Below are positions 17,461 to 37,601 of a stretch of DNA of 64,000 bases, piece after piece. A model generated the notes under the pieces. It was not told the DNA's origin, did no database searches, and worked only from the letters and a program-made list of their open reading frames with translations. The stretch is from an uncultured Bacteroidota bacterium (GTDB lineage: Bacteria; Bacteroidota; Bacteroidia; Bacteroidales; DTGW01), in the NCBI GenBank assembly GCA_963851385.1, contig CAWKPE010000013.1, positions 233,753 through 297,752 of the forward strand, given 5' to 3'. Position 1 is the stretch's first letter. The number at the start of each line of letters is the position of its first letter. The translations under genes and the position numbers were made by a program.

Positions 17461-17496
17461 ATTGGCACATTGGCATATTGGCACATTAGCACATTT
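17461..17496. repeat. 8-bp tandem array attggcac/attggcat/attggcac/attagcac
   Basis: Read directly, ~90 nt upstream of the likely SusC start. Confidence 0.7.
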
Positions 17497-34279: not shown

Positions 34280-35156
34280 ATGATTAAATCAATGACGGGT
34301 TACGGAAAAGCTTCCTGTAATTTTGAAGAAAAAAATATTATTGTAGAACTTCGTTCGGTAAATAGTAAACAACTGGATATTAATAGTCGTATTCCATTCA
34401 ATTATAAAGAGAAAGAATTGGAAATACGGGGTGAAATATCTCGTATTGTAGAAAGAGGTAAAGTTGATTTCTATATAACAATTGAACAAAATGAGCCTGG
34501 AAAACCTGTAAAAATAAATAATGCTGTTCTACTGGAATATTTCAATCAAATAAAATCTGCGGCAACTGAAATAGGAATTTCTGTTACTGAACTATCATTA
34601 ATTGCAGCTTTACGGCTGCCGGAAACTCTTAAGACAGAAATTTCTGAATTATCGGAAAATGAATGGATTATTTTATTGAAATGTATTAAGGATGCACTTG
34701 TACTGTTTAATCAATTTCGAATACAGGAAGGGCTGGCGCTTGAAAAAGATTTGTTATCCAGGCTGGATTTAATATTACTTTATCTTTCAGAAATGGAACA
34801 ATTCGAATCTGCTAGAATTGATAGAATTAAAAATAGACTCCAAAAGAATTTAAATGAGTTTATACCTGCCGGAAATATTGACGCCAATCGTTTTGAACAG
34901 GAAGATTATTTACTTCCTCGAAAAACTTGATTTTACCGAAGAAAAAATACGATTGAAAAATCATTGTAACTATTTCCTGAAAACCATGAAACAGGAAGAA
35001 TCTCAAGGGCGTAAATTGAGTTTTATTGCCCAGGAAATGGGACGTGAAATAAATACTATTGGTTCCAAAGCAAATGATTATGAAATTCAAAAAAATGTAG
35101 TAATGATGAAGGATGAATTGGAGAAAATCAAGGAGCAGTTATCGAATATATTATAA
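34280..35156 (+). pseudogene. yicC: YicC-family stress-induced protein, 1 frameshift
   Basis: MIKSMTGYG.. N-terminus. The frame switches at ~34901-34906 (removing g34904 restores ..FEQEIIYFLEKLDFTEEKIRLKNH..). C-terminal ..GRKLSFIAQEMGREINTIGSKAN... Confidence 0.75.
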
Positions 35157-35168
35157 AAATAGAAGAAC

Positions 35169-35233
35169 GGAATAACTGAAAATCTGAATAAAGGAAGTTA
35201 TAATCTTCAGGACTTCAGATTTTCAGTTATTCC
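35169..35233. repeat. Perfect 20-bp inverted repeat (ggaataactgaaaatctgaa ... ttcagattttcagttattcc), 25-nt loop
   Basis: Arms at 35169-35188 and 35214-35233. The loop holds a small gaag..cttc hairpin. Lies between yicC and gmk. Confidence 0.8.
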
Positions 35234-35273
35234 AAACTTCAAATATTTTACTTTGAACTTTGAACTTATAGAA

Positions 35274-35846
35274 ATGCAAGGAAAGAGCATTATATTTTCA
35301 GCACCCAGCGGAGCCGGAAAAACAACAATAGTCAAAAAATTGCTTGACAAACCGGAACTGAAACTTGAGTTTTCAGTTTCAGCAACTACCCGTAATCCTC
35401 GCGGAAATGAAATTGATGGAAAGGATTATTATTTCATTTCAATTGAAGATTTTAAGAAAAAAATTTCACAAGACGCCTTGGTCGAGTGGGAAGAAGTTTA
35501 TAAGAATTATTTTTATGGAACACTCAAATCAGAATTATCCAGGATTTGGAATAAAGGAAATAATGTTGTTTTTGACGTAGATGTAAAAGGCGGAATAAAT
35601 CTAAAGAAAATATTCAAAAATAATGCCCTGTCAATTTTTATAATGCCTCCTTCTTTAGAAATTCTCGAAAATCGTCTTCGGGAAAGAGGTACCGAAACAG
35701 AAGAAAAAATTCAACAACGCCTAGCAAAAGCAAAACTCGAAATTTATTTTAAATCACAATTTGATATCTGCATTATTAATGATGTCTTGAATAACAGTAT
35801 TGAACAGACTTATGACATAGTGCTTGGATTCTTAAATTCATTATGA
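35274..35846 (+). CDS. gmk: Guanylate kinase
   Basis: ..IIFSAPSGAGKTT.. P-loop, ..ATTRNPRGNEIDGKDYYF... ATG at 35274 preferred over the upstream TTG. Confidence 0.88.
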   Translation: MQGKSIIFSAPSGAGKTTIVKKLLDKPELKLEFSVSATTRNPRGNEIDGKDYYFISIEDFKKKISQDALVEWEEVYKNYFYGTLKSELSRIWNKGNNVVFDVDVKGGINLKKIFKNNALSIFIMPPSLEILENRLRERGTETEEKIQQRLAKAKLEIYFKSQFDICIINDVLNNSIEQTYDIVLGFLNSL

Positions 35847-35997
35847 ATCAATGTGCCAATTCGACAATTCGATAATTTGATAATTTGATAATGTGAAAAT
35901 GTGAAAATATGAGGATGTGAATTGTGAAGTTGTGAATAGAGAAGATAAGAATATGTCAATGTGCCAATGAATTAATGTGCAGATTTGCAAATTTGAG
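35847..35997. repeat. ~19-unit 7-8-bp-period drifting array (tgtgccaa/ttcgacaa/ttcgataa/tttgataa x2/tgtgaaaa x2/...tgtgccaa/...tttgcaaa)
   Basis: Read directly. Begins at the first base after the gmk stop. Opposite orientation to the 36221-36290 array. Confidence 0.8.
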
Positions 35998-36064
35998 TAT
36001 ATTTATGTGTTAACGGACACATTAAGACAGTGCAAAAATTAATTATCAGTGCAATAAACGAACA

Positions 36065-36148
36065 ATGACAAAACACATTTCATTTTTATTTGGCTCTGGA
36101 TTTTCAGCACCTGAAAAAATTCCAACAGTTAGCATTGGAGTTTCATAA
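36065..36148 (+). pseudogene. 27-codon ORF resembling the N-terminus of SIR2-like (SIR2_2) proteins; possible gene relic
   Basis: MTKHISFLFGSGFSAPEKIPTVSIGVS*. FLFGSGFS resembles the F-l-G-A-G-x-S start of SIR2-like domains. Short, so weak. Confidence 0.2.
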
Positions 36149-36220
36149 AACGAATACATAGAATTTTCAAAAGAATAATAATAAGAATTGAAAAAAAGCA
36201 CTAGCTGCATTAAATTTTTA

Positions 36221-36290
36221 AATTGGCATATTTGTAAATAGGCACATTATCTAATTGGCACATCTGCACATTGGCACATTGGCAAATTAA
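36221..36290. repeat. ~8.5-unit 8-bp array (aattggca/tatttgta/aataggca/cattatct/aattggca/catctgca/cattggca x2/aattaa)
   Basis: Read directly. Ends 35 nt before the ABC ATPase ATG. Confidence 0.8.
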
Positions 36291-36325
36291 TTTTATCTTC
36301 GTGAAAGTTTCTTATACATTACGAA

Positions 36326-37022
36326 ATGAAGAACATAATTTCATTTAAAGATATTACGAAGGATTATTATTTAGGAAGCATTGTTGTTCCTGCTTTACAA
36401 AATGTTTCTCTTGATATTTCCCAAAATGAATATGTCGCCATCATGGGGCCATCGGGTTCAGGTAAGTCAACCCTGATGAATATTCTCGGATGTTTAGATA
36501 CACTTACAAGTGGATTCATACATTTTAAATGGAACCGATGTCAGCGGATTAAATGATAATCAACTTGCAGATATTCGAAACAAAGAAATAGGTTTTGTAT
36601 TTCAGACATTTAATTTATTGCCACGTTACAATGCTCTCGAAAATGCAATGTTACCTCTTATTTATGCCGGAGTTCCAAAACTTGAACGTAATAAAATGGC
36701 AAAAGAAGTATTGGCGAATGTAGGTTTGGCAGACCGTATGCTACATAAACCAAATGAACTATCTGGCGGACAACGTCAAAGAGTTGCTTTGGCCAGGGCC
36801 TTGATTAACCATCCGTCTATTATTCTTGCCGACGAGCCAACCGGCAACCTTGATTCAAAAACTTCAATTGATATTATGAGCTTGTTTGATGAAGTTCATA
36901 GCAAAGGAAATACTATAATTGTGGTTACTCACGAAGAAGACATTGCACGCCATGCCCAGAGAATTATAAAACTTCGTGATGGCAAAGTGGAATCTGACCG
37001 TTTAAATGACCACAAATTATAG
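36326..37022 (+). pseudogene. LolD/MacB-type ABC transporter ATP-binding protein, 1 frameshift
   Basis: Walker [10 protein letters not shown], signature [15 protein letters not shown], Walker [12 protein letters not shown]. Frame break at ~36509-36513 (..LDTLTSG|[12 protein letters not shown]..). Confidence 0.8.
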
Positions 37023-37025
37023 AAT

Positions 37026-37601
37026 ATGAAAACTGGTTTGTTCTTTGGTTCTTTCAACCCAATACATATCGGACATCTGGCTATTGCCAATTATATTGTT
37101 GAATACACGGACTTAGAACAATTATGGTTCGTTGTGAGCGCTCAAAATCCTTTAAAAAAGAAAAAAGTACTTTTAGCAGAATATCATAGAATTACTTTAG
37201 TTCGGGAAGCAATTAATAATGACAAAAGATTTTATGCTTGCGATATTGAATTTAAACTTCCTCATCCTTCTTATACTATTGATACACTTACCTACCTTAA
37301 AGAAAATTATCCCGAACGGGAATTTGCAATAGTTATGGGAGCTGACGGATTATTAACATTTAACAAGTGGAAAAATTATAATGAGCTCATAAATAATTAT
37401 ACGCGTTATATATATCCGCGACCGGGTGTAGATGTATCAAAAATTAAAAACACTGAAAATTGCATATTTATTGATGCCCCTTTAATAGAAATATCATCGA
37501 CATTTATTCGCAATGGAATAAGAAAAGGAAAAAATATGCATTATTTTTTAAATGAAAGGGTTTTCAAATATATCAGGGATATGCATTTTTATGAGAAGTA
37601 G
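37026..37601 (+). CDS. nadD: Nicotinate-nucleotide adenylyltransferase
   Basis: ..GLFFGSFNPIHIGHL.. (HxGH) and C-terminal ..ISSTFIR... Confidence 0.85.
   Translation: MKTGLFFGSFNPIHIGHLAIANYIVEYTDLEQLWFVVSAQNPLKKKKVLLAEYHRITLVREAINNDKRFYACDIEFKLPHPSYTIDTLTYLKENYPEREFAIVMGADGLLTFNKWKNYNELINNYTRYIYPRPGVDVSKIKNTENCIFIDAPLIEISSTFIRNGIRKGKNMHYFLNERVFKYIRDMHFYEK

What the first reader, a model, noticed from the sequence alone, without database searches (positions are those of the whole stretch)
35847..36290. Inverted pair of long octamer-period drifting arrays flanking a 223-bp core with a possible SIR2-like stub
A 151-bp tract starts at the first base after the gmk stop. It is built of about 19 consecutive 7-8-bp units that mutate stepwise: tgtgccaa, ttcgacaa, ttcgataa, tttgataa x2, tgtgaaaa x2, tatgagga, tgtgaat ... 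tgtgccaa, tgaattaa, tgtgcaga, tttgcaaa. After a 223-bp unique core, a 70-bp array of the reverse-complement word family (aattggca, aataggca, cattggca x2 ...) runs up to 35 nt before the next gene. The two arrays therefore form a large degenerate inverted repeat. The core contains a 27-codon ORF (36065-36148, MTKHISFLFGSGFSAPEKIP..) reminiscent of the N-terminus of SIR2-like proteins. This could be the scar of a deleted cargo gene bounded by array ends, a protein-binding (iteron-like) array, or an unusual terminator/insulator. I know of no described function for such arrays.
Basis: seen in the sequence. Interest (0 to 1): 0.6.

Follow-up and report, generated by a model that had tools for sequence, protein, structure and literature searches.

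The report
Inverted octamer-repeat arms, no gene inside
The spacer after the guanylate kinase gene is bracketed by two mirror-image runs of an 8-base repeat, one local copy of a repeat class found about 170 times in this genome; it holds no gene remnant and is a fairly ordinary, though still unexplained, kind of bacterial non-coding DNA.

Summary
Octamer-period tracts lie at 35847-35997 and 36214-36290. They are reverse complements of each other and flank a non-periodic, unique core.

The tract is not a one-off. This uncultured Bacteroidales genome carries about 170 intergenic arrays of 7-8-bp units, against 3 in a simulated genome. The octamer word family AATKTGMN recurs patchily in relatives of the same order. 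Octamer arrays follow a placement rule already published for Xanthomonas and Nostoc heptamers: the G-rich strand reads away from the nearest gene.

The spacer is a lineage-specific junction. gmk and nadD are adjacent in 77 of 100 Bacteroidota loci, but here the arrays, the core and an ABC ATPase gene separate them.

The arms are a true inverted duplication and are predicted to pair (z = -3.4). The same armed-hairpin layout encloses four-helix-bundle (23S-rRNA-IVS protein) genes in this and related genomes, and it also occurs in the rRNA spacer.

The SIR2 stub is not supported, and the core shows no gene remnant.

My best reading is a gene-less, IVS-like stem-loop built from simple-sequence repeats. 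Its function is inferred, not shown. The tool for finding sequencing runs was closed, so no read or RNA evidence was available.

The parts
35250..35268 (+). GAACTTT x2.5 heptamer repeat directly upstream of the gmk start. It belongs to another array family of the same genome and is not part of the inverted pair.
   Evidence: Sequence. The same word occurs upstream of other starts on the coding strand.
35274..35846 (+). gmk (guanylate kinase), 190 aa, with TGA stop at 35844-35846.
   Evidence: PF00625 in L102.
35847..35915 (+). Left arm, outer octamer array in 'F' orientation: AATGTGCC AATTCGAC AATTCGAT AATTTGAT x2 AATGTGAA x2 AATATGAG GATGTGAA. Positions 35849-35860 are perfectly complementary to 36270-36281.
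   Evidence: TRF period 8, 6.9 copies. Lag-8 autocorrelation 0.80. More than 20 similar loci in the genome.
35916..35957 (+). TGTGAAT/TGTGAAG units of 7-8 nt (period 15), followed by a non-periodic purine-rich linker. A very similar tail follows the F array at C15:131004-131069 of the genome.
35958..35997 (+). Left arm, inner octamer array: AATGTGCC AATGAATT AATGTGCA GATTTGCA AATTTGAG. It shares the same order of unit variants with the right arm, which marks a true inverted duplication.
   Evidence: Inverted pairs I1-I3, 71-76% complementary over 46-51 nt..
35998..36213 (.). Unique, non-periodic, AT-rich core. It holds a 27-codon ORF (36065-36148, +) and a 54-codon ORF (36046-36210, -). Neither has any detectable relative or family.
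   Evidence: No Rfam match.
36214..36290 (+). Right arm in 'R' orientation (ATTGGCAC alternating with variable octamers, giving a 16-bp super-period). It is the reverse complement of the left-arm word family.
   Evidence: TRF period 16, 4.7 copies..
36271..36301 (+). Likely promoter of the ABC ATPase gene: a -33-like TTGG (36271-36274, inside the last repeat unit), a 19-nt spacer, and a -7-like TATCTTCG (36294-36301).
   Evidence: A TAyCTTCG/TATATTCG box at the same distance from the start is conserved upstream of the orthologues in G001, G004 and G013, which lack arrays there. Its assignment as a Bacteroidota TTTG/TAnnTTTG-type promoter rests on prior knowledge and was not tested.
36326..37022 (+). 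MacB/LolD-type ABC transporter ATPase. In this assembly it is split by a 1-nt indel near 36516-36518. It is intact (231 aa) in L102.
37026..37601 (+). nadD. This is the ancestral immediate neighbour of gmk, displaced here by 1180 bp.

Best explanation
The feature is the gene-less form of an array-armed hairpin. Its two arms are an inverted duplication built from one genome-wide family of octamer simple-sequence repeats (AATKTGMN).

Shown:
- The arrays are real and belong to about 170 intergenic 7-8-bp arrays in this genome.
- The octamer family recurs, with a different dialect in each genome, across the bacterial order.
- Octamer arrays sit at spacer edges with the G/T-rich strand reading away from the nearest gene. 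This locus follows that rule: F orientation right after the gmk stop, R orientation right before the ABC ATPase promoter.
- The spacer is a lineage-specific junction created when the ancestral gmk-nadD pair was separated.
- The arms share the same order of unit variants and are predicted to pair.
- The same layout encloses four-helix-bundle (PF05635, 23S-rRNA-IVS protein) genes, and it occurs between tRNA-Ala and 23S rRNA in the rRNA operon.

Inferred:
- The units multiplied by replication slippage in unconstrained DNA.
- One arm was copied in inverted orientation.
- In any transcript that reads out of gmk, the arms pair into a long imperfect stem that loops out the 216-nt core. By analogy with rRNA intervening sequences, this stem would be an RNase III-type processing or decay boundary between the gmk message and the separately promoted ABC-nadD message.

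The core encodes nothing recognisable.
For: Reality and periodicity of the arrays. An independent assembly is identical.

Genome-wide class:
- At TRF score >= 40 there are 114 period-7 and 57 period-8 arrays, against 1 and 2 in an order-3 Markov genome. Neighbouring periods are far less enriched: at score >= 40, periods 5, 6, 9 and 10 give 3, 10, 39 and 37 arrays against 0, 1, 11 and 19.
- 154 of 166 arrays are intergenic, although 82% of the genome is coding.

Word family in relatives: a four-unit pattern occurs in 27 of 61 genomes of the order, with up to 193 hits per genome. The reversed-pattern control gives about 0 hits. Each genome has its own dialect.

Placement rule:
- For 33 of 39 period-8 arrays with G different from C, the nearer gene lies on the 5' side of the G-rich strand.
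- In co-directional spacers, 12 of 20 F arrays start <= 15 nt from the stop codon, against 1 of 16 R arrays.
- The same layout is seen in G004.
- The same rule is published for GGGNATC heptamers (PMC4692102).

Junction: nadD lies < 300 nt after gmk in 77 of 100 Bacteroidota loci. ABC-nadD adjacency is shared with G001 and G004, but those genomes have no arrays upstream of the ABC gene.

Pairing: MFE is -100.4 kcal/mol against -83.8 +/- 4.9 for shuffles, z = -3.4. The inverted score is 38-39, in the top 1% of 1654 spacers.

Kinship with gene-bearing hairpins:
- 11 of 26 spacers next to PF05635 genes carry arrays, against 213 of 3230 others (odds ratio 10.4, P = 4e-7).
- 10 of 13 such genes have inverted flanks above the control 95th percentile (P = 2e-7), as do 16 of 28 in five other genomes.
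- Arms of the same octamer family enclose these genes at C4:34126/34564, C15:340708/341147 and L193.

rRNA spacer copy: it has a 17-bp perfect stem, z = -2.5.

Other points: an RNase III-like ORF is present in the genome. The Coxiella IVS has tandem heptamers in its arm and is cut by RNase III (PMC4990558).
Against: - No RNA data.
- The stem is imperfect and can pair in many registers.
- Several other F...R pairs in this genome have arms in different dialects and do not fold better than shuffles (C27, C21, C15:143038, C16; z between -1.3 and +1.2). The placement rule therefore cannot be explained by hairpins alone.
- Most arrays have no inverted partner: 10 of 154 reach >= 80%.
- Heptamer arrays in this genome do not follow the placement rule (21 vs 32).
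- In the same-genus relative, the rRNA-spacer arms fold locally on themselves rather than on each other, so there is no clean covariation.
- No array is present at the orthologous ABC upstream regions of relatives. Any function is therefore not tied to that gene.
Confidence: 0.5

Rival explanations
1. Neutral filler. The arrays are polymerase-slippage products (long simple-sequence repeats) that accumulated in a newly created, unconstrained spacer. The inverted arrangement is a chance inverted duplication. Nothing here has a function. The placement rule would reflect a mutational or purifying filter, not a role.
For: - Stepwise drifting units with adjacent identical pairs.
- The spacer is evolutionarily new.
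- There are no arrays at orthologous positions in relatives.
- The distribution among genomes is patchy and correlates with genome size (rho 0.48).
- Most arrays are solitary.
- Over-representation of heptamers and octamers in prokaryotes has been attributed to slippage (Mrazek 2007, as summarised in PMC4679880; PMC4060949).
Against: - One word family is kept across an order while the reversed-pattern control is about 0.
- The orientation and position rule is strong (33 of 39; 12 of 20 vs 1 of 16).
- The arms share an ordered series of unit variants and rank in the top 1% of spacers for inverted similarity.
- The same layout recurs around one particular gene family.
- Periods 5, 6, 9 and 10 are far less enriched than periods 7 and 8.
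Confidence: 0.3
2. Scar of a cassette. The pair of arms once enclosed a small cargo gene, most likely a four-helix-bundle/IVP gene, that arrived as an array-armed insert at the gmk|ABC junction and has since been deleted. The arms and about 216 bp of unrecognisable remnant are what is left.
For: - Gene-bearing versions with the same octamer arms exist in this genome and in G027, including a decaying copy with two stop codons at C4:34268-34543.
- The site is a rearrangement junction.
- In G004, a nucleotidyltransferase/HEPN pair sits between arrays with duplicated flanks.
- Earlier notes of this scan report gene-less derivatives in other genomes (unchecked leads).
Against: - There is no residual similarity to the genome's own IVP genes in any frame (bit scores about 0).
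- The core is 216 bp, whereas arm-to-arm distances with an intact gene are 380-510 bp.
- There is no target-site duplication and no homologous cores elsewhere.
- No mobility enzyme is known.
- IVP copies within the genome are old and diverged, and each has different arms.
Confidence: 0.2
3. Protein-binding arrays. The octamers are tandem binding sites for a DNA- or RNA-binding protein and regulate or insulate the ABC-nadD promoter, whose -33 element lies in the last unit. Candidates are a ribbon-helix-helix-type repressor that reads unspaced 7-8-bp repeats, or the four-helix-bundle pentamers themselves.
For: - Strict periodicity and a conserved word core (RAT-T-K) across genomes.
- The right arm overlaps the predicted -33 region.
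- Arrays are genomically associated with one protein family.
- From prior knowledge, not tested here: omega of pSM19035 binds unspaced heptads in direct and inverted orientation, MetJ binds tandem 8-bp metboxes, and ParG binds repeats with an 8-bp period.
Against: - More than 150 arrays use many unrelated words, which would need many proteins.
- The units drift far from any consensus within a single array.
- No candidate regulator gene lies next to this locus.
- Orthologous ABC promoters work without arrays.
Confidence: 0.1
4. Remnant of a SIR2-like defence gene whose N-terminus survives as the 27-codon ORF.
Against: - No Pfam, PADLOC or NCBIfam hit at E <= 10.
- The PF13289 six-frame search of the genome finds nothing at the core.
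- No similarity continues beyond the stop codon in any frame.
Confidence: 0.02

Closest known systems
Intergenic heptamer/octamer simple-sequence repeats of bacteria (LSSR of Mrazek et al. 2007; GGGNATC repeats of Xanthomonas/Nostoc, Rehm et al. 2015, PMC4692102; TAACTGA repeats, MacGregor 2015, PMC4679880; cyanobacterial STRR)
   Same: - Tandem units of 7-8 nt, strongly enriched and almost exclusively non-coding.
- Phylogenetically patchy distribution, with lineage-specific words.
[quoted passage not shown]
- Inverted copies can form stem-loops.
- Function is unknown.
   Different: - The unit is an AT-rich octamer (AATKTGMN) with no G-quadruplex potential.
- The host is an uncultured Bacteroidales.
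- The arrays are degenerate and drift from unit to unit.
- Two arrays form a long-range inverted pair around a 216-bp core.
- In this genome the rule holds for octamers but not for heptamers.
ORF-bearing intervening sequences (IVS) of 23S rRNA (Coxiella burnetii, Leptospira; PMC4990558)
   Same: - Terminal inverted repeats form a long stem around a loop a few hundred nt long.
- Tandem 7-nt repeats occur in the arm of the Coxiella element.
- The protein family found in IVS loops (PF05635) is the one enclosed by the sister elements of this genome.
- A copy of the octamer hairpin lies in the rRNA operon spacer.
   Different: - The element is not inside 23S rRNA. It lies between two protein-coding genes.
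- There is no S23p/IVP gene or remnant in the loop.
- The arms are long degenerate arrays, not a near-perfect 28-bp stem.
- RNase III excision was not tested.
REP/BIME/REPIN elements of proteobacteria
   Same: - Short repeated sequences confined to spacers, often just after stop codons.
- They occur as inverted pairs able to form hairpins in RNA or single-stranded DNA.
- They are dispersed in hundreds of copies.
   Different: - REPs are single palindromic units of a fixed 20-40 nt, with a cognate RAYT transposase.
- Here the arms are tandem arrays of 8-nt units of variable number, with no fixed element length and no associated transposase identified.
Operator/centromere arrays of ribbon-helix-helix proteins (omega heptads of pSM19035, ParG sites, MetJ metboxes); from prior knowledge
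   Same: Unspaced direct and inverted repeats with a 7-8-bp period next to promoters.
   Different: - Those arrays number a few per replicon, keep a tight consensus and lie next to the gene of the binding protein.
- Here there are more than 150 arrays using many words, and no such gene lies nearby.
Foldback transposons of eukaryotes; from prior knowledge
   Same: Long terminal inverted repeats that are themselves built of short tandem repeats degenerating along the arm, enclosing a variable or empty core.
   Different: - Those are eukaryotic and mobile, with target-site duplications and homologous copies.
- None of these features is seen here.

Membership tests
Long simple-sequence repeats / intergenic heptamer-octamer repeats | Head-to-tail copies of a 1-11-nt unit, longer than expected by chance | tested here: met
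   Lag-8 autocorrelation is 0.65 (left tract) and 0.61-0.70 (right tract), reached by 0 of 2000 shuffles. TRF results. Genome-wide: 57 period-8 arrays vs 2 in the simulated genome.
Long simple-sequence repeats / intergenic heptamer-octamer repeats | Strong bias to non-coding DNA for unit lengths that are not multiples of 3 | tested here: met
   154 of 166 arrays are intergenic, with 82% of the genome in ORFs.
Long simple-sequence repeats / intergenic heptamer-octamer repeats | Placement rule of Rehm et al. 2015: the G-rich strand lies close downstream of a stop on the coding strand, or close upstream of a start on the non-coding strand | tested here: met
   Met at this locus. Genome-wide for octamers: 33 of 39 and 12 of 20 vs 1 of 16. 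Not met by the heptamers of this genome (21 vs 32).
Long simple-sequence repeats / intergenic heptamer-octamer repeats | Copy-number variation between strains | tested here: inconclusive
   Only one other assembly holds the locus and it is identical. A metagenome scan found no further copy.
23S rRNA intervening sequence (IVS) elements | Inserted in a 23S rRNA helix | tested here: not met
   The locus lies between gmk and an ABC ATPase gene. The 23S gene of the genome matches the full-length Rfam model without an insert.
23S rRNA intervening sequence (IVS) elements | Terminal inverted repeats that form a stem around the element | tested here: met
   (z = -3.4). This is prediction only.
23S rRNA intervening sequence (IVS) elements | S23p/IVP (PF05635) ORF in the loop (ORF-bearing subclass) | tested here: not met
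   The PF05635 six-frame search lists 13 loci, and this one is not among them. The genome's own IVP profile scores about 0 on the spacer.
23S rRNA intervening sequence (IVS) elements | Excision by RNase III | not testable with these tools
   An RNase III-like ORF is present. No RNA data are available.
Array-armed four-helix-bundle gene cassettes (seen in this genome and relatives; not found in the papers searched) | Inverted arrays of 7-8-nt units on both sides | tested here: met
   The same octamer family forms the arms at C4, C15 and L193.
Array-armed four-helix-bundle gene cassettes (seen in this genome and relatives; not found in the papers searched) | PF05635 gene between the arms | tested here: not met
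SIR2-like proteins (PF13289 / SIR2 superfamily) | Significant match to the family profile | tested here: not met
MITE / transposon scar | Homologous copies of the whole element elsewhere, plus a target-site duplication | tested here: not met
   The core has 0-2 weak hits in the genome and only the arrays recur. No direct repeat flanks the arms.
Intrinsic terminator | Short G+C-rich hairpin followed by a T run | tested here: not met
   0 terminator-like sites in 35100-36500.
Known RNA families (Rfam 15) | Match to a covariance model | tested here: not met
   Nothing in 35847-36325 even at E <= 10.

The most novel reading that the evidence does not exclude
The gene-less octamer hairpin would be a satellite or relic of a protein-repeat system. 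In that system, four-helix-bundle (PF05635, Avd-like) pentamers recognise, and perhaps create or maintain, arrays of 7-8-nt repeats in RNA or DNA. If so, the long-unexplained heptamer and octamer repeats scattered through many bacterial genomes, about 170 of them here, would be footprints of this family. Spacers such as this one would mark places where a cassette colonised a transcribed gene junction, in the same way that its relatives colonised 23S rRNA.
Probability: 0.15. Interest if true: 0.8.

Novelty: new member of a known kind. Interest (0 to 1): 0.4.

Why it matters
On its own, the locus adds an AT-rich octamer family in Bacteroidales to a class of bacterial non-coding repeats that has been catalogued since the 1990s without a function.

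Its value is as a link between three things:
- The arms use the same words and layout as the hairpins that enclose four-helix-bundle (IVS-protein/Avd-like) genes in this genome and its relatives.
- The same kind of hairpin occurs in the rRNA spacer.
- The arrays obey the placement rule published for unrelated heptamers in Xanthomonas and Nostoc.

This suggests that one mechanism lies behind the orphan repeats, the gene-bearing cassettes and the rRNA intervening sequences. A simple test follows: RNase III-dependent cleavage of a cloned spacer, or binding of the cognate four-helix-bundle protein to the repeat.

If the arrays turn out to be neutral, the locus is still a dated example of how a new spacer fills with repeats after a conserved gene pair is split.

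Tried and rejected
1. Rfam on 35000-37200 at E <= 10: only chance miRNA-type hits upstream of gmk and nothing in the spacer.

2. SIR2 stub: rejected.

3. Core as a decayed IVP gene: a profile built from the genome's 11 IVP proteins scores about 0 in all six frames.

4. The 54-aa minus-strand ORF, called as a gene in L102: its only hit among 5.8 billion proteins is itself.

5. MITE or mobile element: the core is unique and there is no target duplication.

6. Canonical terminator: none found. The sigma-70-type promoter scan is at chance level.

7. Sigma-54 (TGGCAC-N5-TTGC) and full TTTG-N19-21-TAnnTTTG promoters inside the arrays: checked by eye, and the spacings do not fit. Not pursued.

8. Hairpin formation as the general explanation for all F...R pairs: rejected. 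Pairs whose arms are in different dialects fold no better than shuffles, and only 10 of 154 arrays have an inverted partner at >= 80%.

9. Transcription polarity as the cause of orientation: rejected. In co-directional spacers F and R arrays are equally common (20 vs 16), and the rule is symmetric about the spacer.

10. Covariation of the rRNA-spacer arms between G000 and G001: not usable. In G001 each arm folds on itself.

11. Cross-genome correlation of octamer arrays with IVP copy number: rho is 0.50, but rho with genome size is 0.48, so the result is confounded.

12. Strain polymorphism:
- Only one other assembly was found, and it is identical.
- An exact-match metagenome scan with a core 32-mer found nothing.

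13. Positional conservation: relatives have no arrays upstream of the ABC orthologue, and no relative is closer than 70% amino-acid identity in gmk.
Full report
**Observation**

The gmk ORF ends with TGA at 35844-35846, and the next ATG (an ABC ATPase gene) is at 36326.

- Left tract, 35847-35997. Lag-8 autocorrelation is 0.65 and no shuffle out of 2000 reaches it. It resolves into a clean octamer array (35847-35915, lag-8 0.80), a short 7/15-nt array, a non-periodic purine-rich linker, and a second octamer array at 35958-35997.
- Right tract, 36214-36290. It has an 8/16-nt period (0.61/0.70).
- Core, 35998-36213. It is not periodic.
- Inverted relation. The tracts are reverse complements: arms of 46-51 nt are 71-76% complementary. 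The 12-mer at 35849-35860 is perfectly complementary to 36270-36281. Both arms share the same order of unit variants (..GCC AATG.. AATGTGCA GATNTGC..), so they are an inverted duplication rather than two independent arrays.
- Independent check. An independent Logan assembly of run ERR10755942 (L102) is 99.9% identical over 3.5 kb and has the same arrays.

**The locus is one of many**

The window belongs to a 4.18-Mb, 33% G+C genome of an uncultured Bacteroidales.

- TRF finds 114 period-7 and 57 period-8 arrays at score >= 40, against 1 and 2 in an order-3 Markov genome. Periods 5, 6, 9 and 10 are far less enriched (3, 10, 39 and 37 arrays against 0, 1, 11 and 19).
- 154 of 166 arrays are intergenic.
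- The arrays of the finding match more than 20 other loci, while the core matches none.
- A four-unit pattern of the octamer family (RATNTKNN) occurs in 27 of 61 genomes of the order, very patchily (0 to 193 hits per genome). The reversed-pattern control is near zero. Each genome has its own dialect: GATGTGCT, AATTTGCT, AATATGCA.

**Placement rule**

- In co-directional spacers, 12 of 20 arrays reading AATKTG.. on the coding strand start within 15 nt of the stop codon, against 1 of 16 in the opposite orientation. The latter tend to sit just before the next start.
- Convergent and divergent spacers show the same inward-pointing arrangement, also in relative G004.
- Without reference to any word family, 33 of 39 period-8 arrays have the nearer gene on the 5' side of their G-rich strand. 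Heptamers do not follow this (21 vs 32).
- The rule is in print for GGGNATC heptamers of Xanthomonas and Nostoc (PMC4692102).
- Over-representation of heptamers and octamers in prokaryotes is also in print (Mrazek 2007 as summarised in PMC4679880; PMC4060949).
- Heptamer repeats in five Bacteroidetes were noted by MacGregor.

**History of the spacer**

- nadD follows gmk within 300 nt, mostly <= 30 nt, in 77 of 100 Bacteroidota loci (examples).
- Only here do 1180 bp separate them: the arrays, the core and the ABC ATPase gene.
- The ABC-nadD adjacency is shared with G001 and G004, where other genes lie upstream. The gmk|ABC junction is therefore lineage-specific.
- The regions upstream of the ABC orthologues in G001, G004, G005 and G013 have no arrays. 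G001, G004 and G013 keep a TAyCTTCG/TATATTCG box at the same distance from the start as 36294-36301 here.
- I read that box as the -7 element of a Bacteroidota-type promoter (prior knowledge, untested). Its -33 partner would be TTGG at 36271-36274, inside the last repeat unit.

**What the core is not**

- No Rfam family matches.
- The 27-aa peptide has no Pfam, PADLOC or NCBIfam hit.
- The SIR2_2 profile does not touch the core in a six-frame genome search.
- The 54-aa minus-strand ORF has no relative among 5.8 billion proteins.
- No terminator-like site is present.

**Link to gene-bearing hairpins**

One F...R pair of the same octamer family (C4:34126/34564) encloses a decaying PF05635 gene. 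I followed this up.

- The genome has 13 PF05635 (23S-rRNA-IVS protein, four-helix-bundle, Avd-like; PMC10053308) genes.
- 11 of the 26 spacers next to them carry 7/8-period arrays, against 213 of 3230 other spacers (odds ratio 10.4, P = 4e-7).
- 10 of 13 have flanks that are inverted repeats above the 95th percentile of 683 control small genes (P = 2e-7).
- In five other genomes, 22 of 30 such genes have arrays within 200 bp. These are mostly reverse-complement words on the two sides: AATTACG/CGTAATT, GGGCACAA/TGCCCTTG, GTTGCCG/AACCGGC, and TAATGTGC/ATTAGCAC in G027. 16 of 28 pass the inverted-flank threshold.
- This is the architecture of ORF-bearing 23S rRNA intervening sequences. The Coxiella element has a stem of terminal inverted repeats, tandem heptamers of variable number in its 5' arm, an S23p ORF in the loop, and is cut by RNase III (PMC4990558).
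- Earlier notes of this scan describe the same cassettes, and gene-less derivatives, in other genomes. I treat those as leads. The tests above were done before I read them.

**A transcribed copy**

The rRNA operon of this genome (C33) carries an F...R pair of the same octamer family between tRNA-Ala and 23S rRNA. It has a 17-bp perfect stem and z = -2.5. Such hairpins can therefore reside in abundantly transcribed RNA. Comparison with the same-genus genome gave no usable covariation, because each arm there folds on itself.

**Folding**

- The finding folds 16.6 kcal/mol better than dinucleotide shuffles (z = -3.4).
- This is similar to the IVP-bearing elements (z -2.0 to -3.8).
- Four other F...R pairs whose arms are in different dialects do not fold better than shuffles.
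- The finding's spacer ranks about 17th of 1654 for inverted similarity.
- An RNase III-like ORF is present in the genome.

**Interpretation**

Shown: a genome-wide octamer repeat class with a published type of placement rule; a lineage-specific spacer; a true inverted duplication predicted to pair; sister elements that enclose IVP genes.

Inferred: growth by slippage; pairing in gmk read-through RNA; an RNase III-type boundary function.

The neutral-filler reading stays a strong rival. The cassette-scar reading is possible but leaves no trace. Protein-binding arrays are the least supported of the serious rivals. SIR2 is rejected.

Noticed in passing
window 36510-36520: The ABC ATPase gene is split into two ORFs (36326-36556 and 36510-37022) by a 1-nt indel near 36516-36518. 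The Logan contig L102 has an intact 231-aa gene. This is either an assembly error or a strain variant.
   Followed up: yes
window 35847-37025: The ancestral gmk-nadD adjacency (77 of 100 Bacteroidota loci) is broken only in this lineage. The ABC ATPase-nadD pair is shared with G001 and G004 but has different upstream neighbours there. In G005 the ABC gene lies upstream of yicC.
   Followed up: yes
genome C33:52243-52400 (L195:2440-2600): An inverted pair of the same octamer family (AATTTGAT.. / ..ATCAAATT) with a 17-bp perfect stem lies between tRNA-Ala and 23S rRNA in the rRNA operon.
   Followed up: partly
genome C33:52065-52140 (L195:2268-2345): A degenerate partial duplicate of tRNA-Ala, with an insert after the D-arm, lies just upstream of the intact tRNA-Ala in the rRNA spacer. 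G001 has a similar fragment.
   Followed up: no
genome-wide; e.g. C33:85020-85510, C15:340700-341200, C4:34121-34595, C10:159460-159960: Four-helix-bundle (PF05635) genes are enclosed by inverted arrays of 7-8-nt repeats, and each copy has different words. 11 of 26 flanking spacers carry arrays against 6.6% elsewhere. 22 of 30 copies in five other genomes show the same layout.
   Followed up: yes
genome C12:41133-42197, C33:85060-86124; G004:C47:7926-9074: PF05635 genes lie directly next to paralogous MacB/LolD-type ABC ATPase genes in G000 (twice) and G004, and 2.5-2.7 kb away in G001, G002 and G007. This echoes the position of the gene-less hairpin upstream of the ABC ATPase in the window.
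   Followed up: no
window 17462-17495: A TTGGCACA/TTGGCATA x4 array lies about 90 nt upstream of a SusC-like gene, in the same R orientation relative to the start as the right arm of the finding.
   Followed up: partly
window 35250-35268 and many loci (e.g. C14:78648, C14:101190, C10:44263): GAACTTT heptamer repeats sit a few nt upstream of start codons and read GAACTTT on the coding strand in about 9 of 11 cases. Heptamers as a whole do not follow the octamer placement rule.
   Followed up: partly
genome C30:68397-68806 and C14:133522-133819: Very long, near-perfect heptamer arrays: GAATAAA x58.6 and TCTTTAT x42.6. The second lies next to a PF05635 gene.
   Followed up: no
L151 (G004:C15:30700-32100): A nucleotidyltransferase/HEPN gene pair is flanked by two octamer arrays in direct orientation. 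Each array is followed by the same about 25-nt sequence (..CGCCTGCKTGCTATCCGGGTG), as if the array and its flank were duplicated when the pair was inserted.
   Followed up: no
L083 (G002) 2085-2225: The 140-nt gmk-nadD spacer of relative G002 carries its own inverted pair of short-period purine-rich/pyrimidine-rich words (GAAGTTAGAAGATGAAGG / CTTCATCTAACTTCC).
   Followed up: no
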